A stretch of 8,344 nt of DNA from Octopus sinensis (taxonomy: Eukaryota): assembly GCF_006345805.1 (NCBI RefSeq), contig NW_021828465.1, positions 1 through 8,344 on the forward strand, given 5' to 3'. A program made the translations under genes and the position numbers. Of this stretch, positions 1,980 through 7,415 are shown piece after piece. The notes beneath the pieces are model-generated. The model did not search any database. It saw nothing but the letters and a program-made list of their open reading frames with translations, and was not told the origin of the DNA. How positions within the stretch are numbered: position 1 is the first letter of the stretch; every line of letters begins with the position of its first letter.

Positions 1980-2365
1980 CATTGAAGGTGAAACTGAGTG
2001 TATATAAGTCAATGGTCTTGACAACATTGCTTGTACCGAAAGACACGTCAGCCGGCTTGTCGAATTTGTTATGCGGTGCTTTCGTACTATCTCCAACATT
2101 AAAGCAAGTGACCATATTAATAACAGTGAGGTACTAATAAAATGCAACATATCAGTTGTTGAAGCCATCTTCATCAAAATACACCTCAAATGGACAGGTG
2201 ATCTCTCGCGAATGAGTGATATCAGAACACAGAGGTAATTGCTCTTTAGTCAGTTCTCAACAGAAGTCACGCTAGCAAAATGCTGCCCCTCCGAATGGAA
2301 ACCTTACCTGAAATTGTGGCTTTGTGGAAAGAAACGAAGCAGGCCTTGCCGTCTACTCAAGAAAA
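1976..2365 (+). mobile_element. Decayed non-LTR retrotransposon fragment (RTE-clade-like LINE), ORF2 region C-terminal to the RT domain
   Basis: The frame from 1976 reads [19 protein letters not shown]. After a frameshift/deletion, the frame from 2032 reads [74 protein letters not shown], with an in-frame stop at 2236-2238. This matches the recalled RTE/BovB-type pattern TKLxVYxxxVLxTLLYG...RCLRxILxIxWxDxIxNxEVL...LRWxGHxxRMxDxRxPKxLLxxEL. The 3' boundary is approximate. Confidence 0.85.
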
Positions 2366-2382
2366 CACTGCAAATTATCAAC

Positions 2383-2790
2383 GGAGTGGCTGTGTGGTAA
2401 GTAGCTTGTTTACCAACCACATTGTTCCAGGTTCAGTCCCACTGCGTGGCACCTTGGGCGAGTGTCTTCTGCTATAGCCTCGGGCCGACCAATGCCTTGT
2501 GAGTGGATTTGGTAGACGGAAACTGAAAGAAGCCCATCGTATATATGTATATATATATATAAGTGTGTGTTTGTGTGTCTGTGTTTGTCCCCCTAGCATT
2601 GCTTGACAACCGATGCTGGTGTGTTTATGTCCCCGTCACTTAGCGGTTCTGTAAAAGAGACCGATAGAATAAGTACTGGGCTTACAAAAGAATAAGTCCC
2701 AGGGTCGAGTTGCTCGACTAAAGGCGGTGCTCCAGCATGGCCGCAGTCAAATGACTGAAACAAGTAAAAGAGAGTAAAAAAGAGAGTAAG
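2383..2790 (+). mobile_element. tRNA-derived SINE, family 1, nearly full length (octopus-type)
   Basis: Pol III A box TGGCTGTGTGG (2387-2397), B box GGTTCAGTCCC (2430-2440), internal (TA)/(GT) tract and a repeated gagtaaaa-type tail. A second homologous copy lies at 5086-5345. Confidence 0.88.
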
Positions 2791-2820: not shown

Positions 2821-2981
2821 CTGACTGAAGAGGGGCAGAAATAGCCCGACGCCAGACAAGTATGTTGGTCCCATTGCTAGAATGTGGCAAGAGCCTGATC
2901 CCTTACACGCAATATATCGGATGCTGCTATGCCTCGTTAACCAGCTGGAGGAGATGTCCTCATGGGGTTATAAAAATCGCA
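2821..2981 (+). repeat. 161-bp direct repeat, copy 1 (starts with a degenerate hammerhead-like motif)
   Basis: Ungapped alignment to 4234-4394 gives 147/161 identical by manual count. Confidence 0.95.
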
Positions 2982-3019
2982 TACCAGTGTGGTTTCGGGT
3001 TATTTCTGTCTCTCTCTAG
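2979..3019 (-). ncRNA. Degenerate minimal hammerhead-ribozyme-like motif (Penelope/retrozyme type), probably inactive
   Basis: The minus strand reads CTAGAGA-GAGAC-AGAAATA-ACCC-GAAA-CCACACTGG-TA-TGC. It aligns without gaps to the plus-strand copies CTGAAGA-GGGGC-AGAAATA-GCCC-GACG-CCAGACTGG-CA-TGT. It keeps GAAA, stem III and a GUA triplet but has a mutated CUGANGA box. Confidence 0.5.
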
Positions 3020-3120
3020 AACCGAACATGTCGTCTGTAAGAGATGGCAGTAGTTCTCCCCACCTTGCAATATATATATAAATTCAAGCGACACAGTCGC
3101 TGATTTTAGAAGATCCAATG

Positions 3121-4058
3121 CTAGTTCTAAAATTTCTCTGAGAGATCATCGCAATAGTTGTTCTAGCAAGTAAAATTCGTAACTACTCTAGTTCTAAAAT
3201 TTCTCTGAGAGATCATCGCAATAGTTGTACTAGCAAGTAAAATTCGTAACTACTCTAGTTCTAAAATTTCTCTGAGAGATCATCGCAATAGTTGTACTAG
3301 CAAGTAAAATTCGTAACTACTCTAGTTCTAAAATTTCTCTGAGAGATCATCGCAATAGTTGTACTAGCAAATAAAGTTCGTAACTACTCTAGTACTAAAA
3401 TTTCTCTGAGAGATCATCGCAATAGTTGTTCTAGCAAGTAAAATTCGTAACTACTCTAGTTCTAAAATTTCTCTGAGAGATCATCGCAATAGTTGTACTA
3501 GCAAATAAAGTTCGTAACTACTCTAGTTCTAAAATTTCTCTGAGAGATCATCGCAATAGTTGTTCTAGCAAGTAAAATTCGTAACTACTCTAGTTCTAAA
3601 ATTTCTCTGAGAGATCATCGCAATAGTTGTACTAGCAAATAAAGTTCGTAACTACTCTAGTACTAAAATTTCTCTGAGAGATCATCGCAACAGTTGTTCT
3701 AGCAAGTAAAATTCGTAACTACTCTAGTTCTAAAATTTCTCTGAGAGATCATCGCAATAGTTGTACTAGCAAATAAAGTTCGTAACTACTCTAGTTCTAA
3801 AATTTCCCTGAGAGATCATCGCAATAGTTGTTCTAGCAAGTAAAATTCGTAACTACTCTAGTTCTAAAATTTCTCTGAGAGATCATCGCAATAGTTGTTC
3901 TAGCAACTAAAGTTCATAACTACTCTAGTTCTAAAATTTCTCTGAGAGATCATCGCAATTGTTGTACTAGCAACTAAAGTTCATAACTACTCTAGTTCTA
4001 AAATTTCTCTGAGAGATCATCGCACTAGTTGTACTAGCAACTAAAGTTCGTAACTACT
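3121..4058. repeat. Minisatellite/satellite array: exactly 14 tandem copies of a 67-bp unit
   Basis: Unit ctagttctaaaatttctctgagagatcatcgcaatagttgtWctagcaaVtaaaRttcgtaactact starts at 3121, 3188, 3255, 3322, 3389, 3456, 3523, 3590, 3657, 3724, 3791, 3858, 3925 and 3992. There are no indels, only a few substitutions per unit. Confidence 0.99.
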
Positions 4059-4076
4059 TCAACATGGCTGTCTGTT

Positions 4077-4408
4077 CGAGCGGAATTTACTGCGATTTTT
4101 TAATCCCAAGAAGACATCTCCTCTAGCTGGTTAACAATGCACAGCTGCATCCAACATATTTGGAGCAGGGGGGAAAAAAACCTTACAACCTTCTAGCGAC
4201 GGAACCAGCATACCACTCTGGTTAGGGCTGTTTCTGACTGAAGAGGGGCAGAAATAGCCCGACGCCAGACTGGCATGTTGGTCCCGTTGCTAGAATGTGG
4301 AAAGAGTCTGTTCCCCTACTAGCAATATATCGGGTGCAGCTATGCATCGTTAACCAGCTGGAGGAGATGTCCTCATGGGGTTAAAAAAATCGCAGTAAAT
4401 TCCGCTCG
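4077..4408. repeat. ~330-bp imperfect palindrome (head-to-head inverted copies of one repeat family)
   Basis: 4077-4236 is the reverse complement of 4249-4408 (roughly 80% by eye, higher in the outer half), with a 12-nt loop actgaagagggg at 4237-4248. Confidence 0.93.
4234..4394 (+). repeat. 161-bp direct repeat, copy 2 (hammerhead-like motif at 4238-4278)
   Basis: 147/161 identical to 2821-2981. It also forms the right arm of the 4077-4408 palindrome. Confidence 0.95.
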
Positions 4409-5085: not shown

Positions 5086-5345
5086 GGCGTAGGCATGGCT
5101 GTGTGGTAAGAAGTTTACTTCCCAACCACATGATTCCGGGTTCAGACCCACTGCGTGACACTTTGGGCAGACCAGAGCCTTGTAAGTGGATTTGATGGAC
5201 GGAAATTGAAAGAAGCCCGTCGTATATTCATATATTTATATATGTATTTATAATGTGGGTGTTTTTGTGTCTGTGTTTATCCCTCATCGGCGTTTGACAA
5301 CCGATGTAAGTGTTTTTACGTCCCCGGCGCACTAACAATTCTGCA
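5086..5345 (+). mobile_element. tRNA-derived SINE, family 1, diverged, internally deleted and 3'-truncated copy
   Basis: Colinear with 2383-2655 (tggctgtgtggtaag...ggttcagacccactgcgtg...gaaagaagccc...tgacaaccgatg...gtcccc). It lacks about 25 bp after ttgggc and lacks the tail. Confidence 0.85.
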
Positions 5346-6044: not shown

Positions 6045-6131
6045 TATGTATATATATGCATACATACACACACACGTACACACACACTCACCCACATACA
6101 CACAGACACATGCACACTTACATATATATAT
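5909..6131. repeat. Compound (TA)n/(TG)n/(CA)n microsatellite
   Basis: Direct inspection. Confidence 0.93.
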
Positions 6132-6133
6132 TA

Positions 6134-7005
6134 CATGGAAAAATGCGAGCAAGAGTAATAATATTCTTAAGATTATAAACCTGGAAAATTACAGGACAAT
6201 TTATCACACTTGGAGAAATCCAGGACATCTTATTGCATCTGGTAAAGTGGAGAACAAGAAAATTTTTACCTAAAATATTGCAGCTAAGGATAAAATTTCA
6301 AATAAAATATTTAGATTTAGAAAATATTAGCTTTTATTAAGACTAAAAAAATATTACAAGCTGTTACTTCTATTTGTTATTACTTGTTACTTCTATTAGA
6401 AATTAAAAATAACTCAAAATATTTTGCACTTTAAGAAAATTCATTATTTTAATTATTAATTAATAATTGGAAATTTGGAAATAGGTCATAAAAATAATAG
6501 TAATACATAATTAGTACAATAACTAGTATAATACAAAAATTAGTTATATATTACAGTAAAATCTACCTATAACAACAAATTCACAGTAAAATTTGCTTGA
6601 GTTATTGCCTAAGTTATTGCCAAGTTTTCACATTTTTAGTCTTGACCCAATGCCTATTTTTTACATAATGAACTTGCCTACCATACATACTAGTCTACTT
6701 TGCATAAAACTTTAGCTATATTGATATTTCTGTCTCACATTTTTAAAGTATTCTAGTGTGTCAATATTTCAACAAAATGATGGTACTTTTTTGGATTATA
6801 ATATTACTTTGTAAATTAAAATCAAATGATTGTTAATATTCAGATTTTGCCTTAGCAGCAATATTTAAAGTAAAAATCTACATGTTCTGTACGTTACCAG
6901 ATAAAATAACTTATCCTGAAGTTTTCCAAGTGTAATAATTTGTCCTGTACTTTTCCAGATTTATAATCGTAAGAATATTATTTCTCTTGCTCGCATTTTC
7001 CCATG
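6134..7005. mobile_element. MITE-like non-autonomous DNA transposon with long terminal inverted repeats, TA-flanked (Tc1/mariner-like)
   Basis: About 6134-6300 is the reverse complement of about 6838-7005, with the first 66 bp 61/66 identical. The ends read TA|CATGG...CCATG|TA. The interior is very AT-rich and non-coding. Confidence 0.8.
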
Positions 7006-7415
7006 TAATCCATGTTTCCAGGCTATGCTATTATTCTAATTAATTATGTGTCAAATGTGTCAATTAGCGGTGTCGCAACTTTTTTTATACAAATTTTTGT
7101 TCCTTGGGAGGAAAACTATGAAATTCTTCACGGTTTCTTCTATCGTTGAAGCTAAGATAAATATATTTTGCTTTTAAAATGAAAAAGTTATTGAGATCTT
7201 AACTTGATTGGTGGCGTTACTTACTTTCCTATAATATTGATGTAAACTTTTTTCTACTGGATCAAATCTGAATTTTTTTATACCAAAATGTAGCTAGGAA
7301 CTAGTACTCTTCAAACATGATAACGGTTCTCCATTTGGTTAAGAACTGAATAAGCAACACGCTCTGAAATATGCAGCGTGTGAGTAAATTGCGGCCTTAA
7401 GAATATTATTCAACT

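What the first reader, a model, noticed from the sequence alone, without database searches (positions are those of the whole stretch)
2825..4278. Four fragments of one repeat reconstruct a minimal hammerhead ribozyme of the Penelope/retrozyme type
Seen: four homologous motifs at 2825-2865 (+), 4238-4278 (+), 2979-3019 (-) and 4208-4236 (-, 5'-truncated). The plus copies keep CTGAAGA-G-GGGC-agaaata-GCCC but read GACG instead of GAAA. The 2979-3019 copy keeps CCC-GAAA-CCA-cac-TGG-TA but reads CTAGAGA. The composite is CUGAAGA-G-[GGGC..GCCC]-GAAA-[CCA-nan-UGG]-UA^UGC. Stem III is kept in three of the four copies (ACCAcacTGGT, ACCAgagTGGT, GCCAgacTGGC, the last with a compensatory A-U to G-C pair). 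Established: Penelope-like elements and metazoan retrozymes carry minimal type I hammerheads with a short palindromic stem III, often with an extra nucleotide after CUGANGA. Inference: this is a decayed ribozyme-bearing retroelement family. Limits: no single copy has an intact core, and only one base pair of stem I is visible in the plus copies.
Basis: partly seen in the sequence, partly recalled or inferred. Interest (0 to 1): 0.8.

Follow-up and report, generated by a model that had tools for sequence, protein, structure and literature searches.

The report
Hammerhead repeat family targeted by LINE
The four motifs are broken pieces of an abundant 355-base repeat whose other copies keep a complete hammerhead motif, predicted to self-cleave, and a LINE retrotransposon inserts at one fixed spot just upstream of that motif in three related repeat families and likely rides along when the repeats are copied.

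Summary
The four motifs belong to one locus of a dispersed, ~360-nt tandem-unit family (A) in a 2.7-Gb animal genome. No window copy is intact, but 10 of 43 sampled A copies keep both core boxes and stem I. The ribozyme is a canonical type I hammerhead, not the minimal Penelope type. Two related families (B, C) keep the same fold with covarying stems. All three fit non-LTR retrozymes, and their insertions bear Penelope-type marks. Cleavage and circular RNA were not shown; RNA-seq was inconclusive. An added result: an L1/Tx1-like LINE inserts about 27 nt upstream of the core. Of 40 LINE hits, 36 end at this site, with duplications of about 15-19 bp where both flanks survive. Of those 36, 27 lack the upstream target flank and so were likely re-copied together with the repeat. 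This scan earlier noted a Tx1 aimed at hammerhead-bearing Penelope ends in a vertebrate (unchecked notes). Eight paper searches turned up no report of this targeting. Verdict: a new member of a known kind, with an unusual hyperparasite.

The parts
2821..2981 (+). 5'-truncated retrozyme-A piece (unit 27-185); decayed hammerhead at 2825-2865 lacking the 5' strand of stem I, GAAA mutated, stem III broken; likely a local duplicate of the 4234 copy
   Evidence: 17% diverged from column majority
2979..3046 (-). End of the minus arm (unit 1-68): empty, decayed LINE target site (3046-3029) followed by a hammerhead with the first box mutated; stops a few nt past the predicted cleavage site
3047..3187 (-). 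Minus arm, last third of the unit (unit 219-335 aligned; the rest is read from the sequence)
3121..4058 (-). 14 tandem copies (95% matches) of a 67-bp internal segment of the unit (219-285), spanning the first preferred 3' end and reaching the second; a later local expansion (inferred)
3992..4239 (-). Start of the minus arm (unit 36-285), beginning inside stem II; includes the 4208-4236 motif; head-to-head with the plus arm
   Evidence: 13% diverged from column majority
4234..4408 (+). Plus arm (unit 27-199); decayed hammerhead at 4238-4278
   Evidence: 13% diverged from column majority

Best explanation
The window holds a decayed, inverted insertion of a ~360-nt tandem repeat family whose other copies carry a complete type I hammerhead motif, most likely a non-autonomous retrozyme copied by Penelope-like machinery, and an L1/Tx1-like LINE inserts at one fixed site just upstream of that motif and likely hitchhikes. 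Mechanism, step by step. (1, inferred from published retrozymes) Tandem units are transcribed and cut by the hammerheads into ~355-nt monomers that can be circularised; the palindromic stem III favours cleavage as a dimer. (2, inferred) A Penelope-like RT-endonuclease starts reverse transcription at one of two internal sites of the unit and inserts the copy into AT-rich DNA. This gives fixed 3' ends, variable 5' ends, partial tandems and head-to-head inverted arms; these patterns are shown. (3, shown) The LINE's 3' end joins the unit about 27 nt upstream of CUGANGA, a few bases before the distal stem I, with a duplication of about 15-19 bp, so the downstream ribozyme stays whole. (4, inferred) LINE-bearing repeat RNA is then copied from the repeat's own start sites back through the ribozyme into the LINE and truncates there. 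That would explain why most LINE copies have no upstream target flank. The window's own copies are predicted to be dead.
For: Family and fold: 1170, 2501 and 2984 first-look candidates for A, B, C. Intact core plus at least 5/6 stem I pairs in 10 of 43, 39 of 53 and 29 of 43 copies. Stem I is paired in 81%, 97% and 88% of cells against 11-67% when slid; the commonest pair differs between families at 5 of 6 positions and is a standard pair in all 18 cases; U1.7 is present in 83 of 87 copies. Natural copies fold with the long stem I (z -1.4 to -3.4), and L015 folds into the three-way junction. Units are 353-360 nt, GC 38-45%, with dimers and arrays of three to four units, and are homologous (global z 5.7-18.4). 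Penelope marks: two preferred 3' ends in each family (A and B at about 230-239 and 280-299, C at about 220-229 and 270-289); head-to-head inverted arms in 9 of 28, 25 of 29 and 14 of 29 loci; intact RT plus GIY-YIG elements exist in the genome. PMC11167929 reports two internal start sites and AT-rich targets; PMC8557442 reports inverted 5' copies and a one-sided tail. LINE: a query without ribozyme sequence gave 40 scored hits; 36 end at the site (A 15, B 11, C 8, two further variants), 1 is off-target and 3 lack the tail end. All 7 new hits of a tail-only query also end there. Duplications are clear in L143, L166, L170, L173, L179, L018 and L046. Tandem LINEs are separated by one target piece (L173, L168, L329). 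LINE subfamilies mix targets. The LINE-A junction is bridged by contigs of four differently coded organisms. Hitchhiking: 27 of 36 have no same-strand target flank upstream within about 7 kb; the repeats behind them stop at the same two ends; L185 has LINE tail plus repeat C in both inverted arms.
Against: No cleavage, circle or strand-specific transcript was shown. Three RNA-seq runs gave both orientations equally, no pile-up of ends at the predicted cut, and 82-87% of reads running on into unlike sequence. Rfam found no hammerhead family in the window or in six loci with intact copies. Only 4 of 43 A copies pass the strictest descriptor. B and C have a mismatch at the base of stem II. Three of the four intact natural copies folded (L024, L070, L200) do not give the active core as their lowest-energy structure. 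No partner Penelope element shares sequence with A, B or C (0 of 40 PLE loci; one weak 71% match among 30). All counts come from the best-scoring 30-40 hits per search, not from a genome-wide tally. Later insertions or deletions could hide some upstream flanks (L163 was such a case). Tx1 membership was not tested by phylogeny. PMC11167929 found that ribozyme cleavage was not needed for insertion in vitro.
Confidence: 0.8

Rival explanations
1. Family A is the terminal repeat (pLTR) of an autonomous Penelope-like element not sampled here, and the window holds ordinary truncated ends of it.
For: Inverted 5' arms and two 3' ends are Penelope hallmarks. bioRxiv 2026.07.22.740005 derives retrozymes from pLTRs. 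A PLE ORF lies beside an A copy in L005 and in L010.
Against: The 29 other loci of the L005 PLE family and 10 extended PLE loci have no A, B or C sequence. Those PLEs carry their own minimal hammerheads. The L010 ORF is on the opposite strand. The unit runs head-to-tail into itself.
Confidence: 0.1
2. The LINE does target the repeats, but flank-less copies arise from its own action (3' transduction of read-through RNA, or large target deletions) or from later deletion, not from Penelope-driven re-copying.
For: 5' truncation and inversion also occur in L1-type elements (own knowledge). L141 shows a small target loss. One off-target insertion with a short duplication exists (L167).
Against: The repeats behind flank-less LINEs end at the same two sites as LINE-free repeats. 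The inverted arms in L168 and L185 overlap the direct arm in sequence, as in Penelope insertions. A site-specific endonuclease would not place 27 of 36 copies in unrelated DNA.
Confidence: 0.25
3. The LINE captured a hammerhead repeat once as its own 3' end and there is no ongoing targeting.
For: Most copies show only the 3' junction.
Against: At least three different repeat families follow the same tail. The tree needs repeated switches (13 changes, minimum possible 6). At least 7 copies have target duplications, several tandem insertions exist, and an ORF1-only element uses the same site.
Confidence: 0.03
4. The motif is not a working ribozyme in any copy, only a relic sequence.
For: Family A is old (median 9% from column majority). 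There is no Rfam match and no RNA end signal. In bioRxiv 2026.07.22.740005, 8 of 9 tested Xenopus dimers did not cleave.
Against: Covarying stems around invariant core boxes in three families imply selection for the fold when the families were spreading. This rival concerns present activity only.
Confidence: 0.15

Closest known systems
Metazoan non-LTR retrozymes (Cervera and de la Pena 2020, PMC7229834), especially mussel (350-390 bp) and axolotl Rtz_353
   Same: Non-coding 353-360 bp units, GC under 50%, tandem and dispersed, canonical type I hammerhead with palindromic stem III. Family C has the U-U mismatch at the base of stem II described for axolotl HHR_Amex2, and a 1-bp stem III with palindromic tetraloop like HHR_Amex1.
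   Different: Not reported for cephalopods in the main text (supplements not seen). Family A has a longer 5+1+5 palindrome and a bulged stem II. Circular RNA is not shown here. A resident site-specific LINE is not described there in the parts read.
Minimal hammerheads in the terminal repeats of Penelope-like elements (PMC4209133)
   Same: Palindromic stem III, predicted dimer cleavage, inverted and partial-tandem insertions.
   Different: Those have a long stem II (7-8 bp), a short stem I and flank an RT/GIY-YIG ORF. A, B and C have a 3-4 bp stem II, a 6-bp stem I with distal stem, and no ORF. This genome's own PLEs carry the minimal type, including the U3-A8 core variant.
Target-specific Tx1-clade LINEs: Tx1L in Tx1D, Tx1-Mar, Keno, Kibi, Koshi (PMC4494074)
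   Same: Two ORFs (zinc-knuckle ORF1; endonuclease-RT-zinc finger ORF2), a fixed site and strand in a multicopy repeat, long target duplications, tandem insertions.
   Different: The target is a ribozyme repeat, at the homologous site of several families only about 57-65% alike, and most copies appear to have been re-copied with their target. That paper's figure legend lists 'satellites' among Tx1 targets without naming them in the text, so overlap cannot be excluded.
R2 elements in 28S rDNA (ribozyme processing of a co-transcript; recalled, reference seen)
   Same: A site-specific LINE in a transcribed tandem unit whose RNA could be released by ribozyme cleavage.
   Different: R2 encodes its own 5' ribozyme and a restriction-like endonuclease; here the ribozyme belongs to the target and lies 3' of the element.

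Membership tests
Type I hammerhead ribozyme | CUGANGA, GAAA and UH boxes in one copy at proper spacing | tested here: met
   15 of 43 A, 40 of 53 B, 32 of 43 C; not met in any window copy
Type I hammerhead ribozyme | Stems I-III with covariation | tested here: met
   Stem I pair types differ across families at 5 of 6 positions; stem III at least 80% palindromic in 72 of 87; stem II 3-4 bp, with a basal mismatch in B and C
Type I hammerhead ribozyme | Match to an Rfam hammerhead model | tested here: not met
   No hammerhead family at E<=10 in the window or E<=1 in six loci; a library match, not a structural criterion
Type I hammerhead ribozyme | Self-cleavage | not testable with these tools
   Needs in vitro transcription
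Non-LTR retrozyme | Non-coding 150-450 bp unit, GC under 50%, in tandem with one hammerhead per unit | tested here: met
   Units 353-360 nt, GC 38-45%; tandems in 2 of 28, 11 of 29 and 7 of 29 loci
Non-LTR retrozyme | Stable self-paired monomer | tested here: inconclusive
   Circular folds z -2.0 to -5.6 for five monomers, -1.1 for a sixth, chimeric slice; antisense scores are similar
Non-LTR retrozyme | Expressed as linear and circular monomer RNA | tested here: inconclusive
Penelope-like element terminal repeat with minimal hammerhead | Flanks an RT plus GIY-YIG ORF on the same strand | tested here: not met
   One adjacency in L005 not repeated in 29 sister loci or 10 extended loci; none in 30 GIY-YIG loci with 1.5-kb flanks; sample only
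Penelope-like element terminal repeat with minimal hammerhead | Long stem II, short stem I | tested here: not met
   against PMC4209133
Penelope-mobilised insertion | Two internal 3' ends, inverted 5' arm, AT-rich flanks | tested here: met
   AT-richness read from printed flanks, not counted
L1 group LINE | ORF1 plus ORF2 with AP-type endonuclease, RT and C-terminal zinc finger | tested here: met
   zf-CCHC, RVT_1 and zf-RVT. The endonuclease region missed Pfam on its own but aligns at 33% to a PF03372-bearing relative. Best solved relative of the profile is human L1 ORF2
Tx1 clade | Target-site specificity with long duplication | tested here: met
   36 of 37 complete tails at the site; duplications of about 15-19 bp
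Tx1 clade | RT phylogeny inside Tx1 | not tested
   No named Tx1 reference appeared among the listed relatives

The most novel reading that the evidence does not exclude
A three-tier parasite system: a LINE lineage specialised on hammerhead retrozymes, which themselves depend on Penelope elements. It inserts where the ribozyme is left intact, uses the host repeat's hammerheads to cut out (and perhaps circularise) its own RNA, and owes about three quarters of its genomic copies to Penelope machinery rather than to its own enzymes. If the vertebrate case noted elsewhere in this scan is the same lineage, ribozyme-flank targeting would be an ancient, widespread niche.
Probability: 0.35. Interest if true: 0.75.

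Novelty: new variant of a known kind. Interest (0 to 1): 0.52.

Why it matters
The repeat alone extends retrozymes to another animal group and is modest news. Its insertion pattern gives genomic support for the open proposal that Penelope elements mobilise retrozymes. The LINE adds two testable points: a retrotransposon endonuclease that follows one site across diverged ribozyme families, and natural 'cargo' insertions showing that the retrozyme's mobiliser can copy kilobases of foreign RNA placed upstream of the ribozyme. That bears on whether the template is an uncleaved transcript or a re-ligated circle.

Tried and rejected
Rfam gave no hammerhead hit. An exact 35-letter core pattern found only 8 copies, as expected for an old family. 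The PLE beside L005 was followed as a possible partner and rejected; the GIY-YIG search also gave no partner. MAFFT could not align family C structurally with A and B, so covariation was counted by anchoring on the core boxes. Sequencing runs: no RNA holder listed. Raw RNA reads of one related label were laid on a B/LINE locus and were inconclusive. Distant LINE relatives in metagenome contigs (24-41% identity to the first protein of the query alignment): 3 descriptor hits in 80 loci, none at a LINE 3' junction; only L239 was read closely. The closest relatives (about 43-49%, ENA) could not be fetched with flanks. L335/L336 looked like a composite tandem but is a local duplication including flanks. 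The ESM Atlas and PDB searches gave only generic L1-type names. Lunse et al. 2017 on dimeric hammerheads was not held and is not relied on. My automatic duplication finder missed degenerate cases and mis-placed three junctions (L170, L172, L180); these were re-read, and L180 and L179 are not part of the 40-hit tally.

Full report
Observation. The window is a whole 8.3-kb contig of a 2.72-Gb animal genome. The host is probably an octopod: the nearest named relative of the LINE described below is from Argonauta hians (59%), and the SINEs look familiar from recall. The four motifs are present as written. They are not four independent insertions. Mapped on a natural monomer, the locus is a plus piece (unit 27-185), a minus arm longer than one unit (36 to 360, then 1 to 68) swollen by 14 copies of a 67-bp internal segment, and a second plus piece (27-199) head-to-head with it. 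The two plus pieces start at the same base and share private changes at 91% identity, so one is likely a local duplicate. No window copy passes a hammerhead descriptor or folds better than shuffles.

The family. The repeat has 1170 first-look candidates. Over 43 distinct copies the column majorities give CCAGUA, CUGAAGA, GAGGC-AGAAAUA-GCCC, GAAA, a palindromic stem III, a GUA or GUC triplet and UGCUGG. Ten of 43 keep both boxes and at least 5 of 6 stem I pairs; four pass a stricter descriptor that also demands an unbroken stem II. Stem I continues past an internal loop into a distal stem, and U1.7 is present in all 15 copies with both boxes. This is the canonical type I design. PMC4209133 (parts 1-2 of 4 read) gives the minimal Penelope type a long stem II and short stem I, which is not what is seen. 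The unit is about 360 nt and runs head-to-tail. Two related families came to light: B (353 nt, 2501 candidates, median 4% from majority, arrays of up to four units) and C (357 nt, 2984 candidates, 6%). They are homologous to A and keep the same fold with different sequence: all 18 commonest stem I pairs are standard and differ between families at five of six positions. Size, GC content and arrangement match the non-LTR retrozymes of PMC7229834 (passages and parts 2-3 of 6 read; supplements not seen). Rfam did not recognise any copy.

How it moves. Copies end at two preferred unit positions about 50-55 nt apart in all three families, and head-to-head inverted arms occur in 9 of 28, 25 of 29 and 14 of 29 loci. 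PMC8557442 (passages) describes inverted 5' copies and a one-sided tail for Penelope-like elements. PMC11167929 (parts 1-2 of 4) traces the tail to two internal start sites and AT-rich targets. bioRxiv 10.64898/2026.07.22.740005 (parts 1-3 of 5) argues that animal retrozymes depend on these elements. The genome has Penelope-like elements with long intact frames, but they carry their own minimal hammerheads and share no sequence with A, B or C in the loci examined. Mobilisation in trans is therefore an inference from the pattern, and the partner is unidentified.

The LINE. Five of the first 28 outside loci had the same foreign tail just upstream of the ribozyme, four of them with LINE ORF2 sequence. 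A search with its ORF2 end, containing no ribozyme sequence, scored 40 of 710 candidates. Thirty-six end about 27 nt upstream of the core of A (15, one with an 18-nt loss), B (11), C (8) or two further variants; one is elsewhere with a short duplication; three lack the tail end. Seven new hits from a tail-only query all end at the site. Full-length copies are about 5.1 kb with a zinc-knuckle ORF1 and an endonuclease-RT-zinc finger ORF2. Duplications of 17-19 bp are clear in seven loci and degenerate ones of about 15-17 bp in three more. Tandem insertions separated by one target piece occur. On a tree of 39 copies the target label changes 13 times (minimum 6, shuffled mean 20.7), so it is clustered but not fixed, and supported subfamilies contain more than one target. 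Contigs of four coded organisms bridge the LINE-A junction. The targets share CTAGC, which is the 5' arm of the distal stem I, and the duplication leaves the downstream ribozyme whole. Target choice among repeats is a known habit of Tx1 elements (PMC4494074, passages), but Tx1 membership was not tested by phylogeny.

Hitchhiking. A primary insertion must leave target sequence upstream. Nine of the 36 do. Twenty-seven are 5'-truncated against unrelated DNA or an inverted arm, with no same-strand target junction within about 7 kb. The repeats behind the LINEs stop at the usual two ends. In L185 both inverted arms consist of LINE tail plus repeat C, one ending near each site. The simplest reading is that LINE-bearing repeat RNA was copied by the repeat's mobiliser, through an uncleaved or re-ligated ribozyme. 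I put this step at about 0.65. Later rearrangement could hide some flanks, and all tallies rest on top-scoring hits.

Expression. Three RNA-seq runs of a related label cover family B pieces at roughly 70-300-fold in 12 million reads, equally in both orientations, with no pile-up of ends at the predicted cut and most reads running into unrelated sequence; 31 reads span an empty target site. This fits copies embedded in host transcripts and neither shows nor excludes circles.

Novelty. Eight paper searches listed no report of cephalopod retrozymes or of a LINE aimed at retrozymes; 'Tx1' with 'retrozyme' gave 0 papers. I judged these lists from titles and abstract openings, apart from the papers named above and PMC10294476 (passages, no mention of hammerheads). 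Subscription papers, Repbase and supplements were not seen, and PMC4494074 lists unnamed satellites among Tx1 targets. Two unchecked notes of this scan describe a Tx1 aimed at hammerhead-bearing Penelope ends in a vertebrate; I had reached my reading before seeing them and did not test them. The repeat is a new member of a known kind. The multi-family targeting and apparent hitchhiking make the system a new variant. Interest 0.52.

Noticed in passing
L168:2551-3700 (minus): A 1.16-kb element with only an ORF1-like frame (zinc knuckle) sits in the same target site with an 18-bp duplication, in tandem with the LINE; a related 5' end follows the target piece in L160.
   Followed up: partly
L169 and L174, just after the LINE tail: Two further diverged repeat variants are hit at the homologous site, so more than three families exist.
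   Followed up: no
L132-L134, L297, L298, L307, L311-L313: Autonomous Penelope-like elements with long open frames carry minimal hammerheads with the U3-A8 core variant in their 3' repeats.
   Followed up: partly
window 2387-2635 and 5096-5326: Two copies (85%) of a SINE-like repeat (families D17, D18, D20); recalled as typical of octopods, not tested.
   Followed up: no
window 6130-6294 and 6845-7009: 165-nt inverted arms, 84% complementary, 550 nt apart, like a MITE.
   Followed up: no
window 1980-2330: Decayed fragment whose translation resembles the end of an RTE-type reverse transcriptase (resemblance recalled).
   Followed up: no
L239:16-75: A clean hammerhead motif with palindromic stem III at the start of a metagenome contig, 2.8 kb upstream of a distant LINE ORF2; no junction or duplication seen.
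   Followed up: partly
L026:2-1312: A 437-aa open frame resembling a Helitron-type helicase next to a family A copy (resemblance recalled).
   Followed up: no
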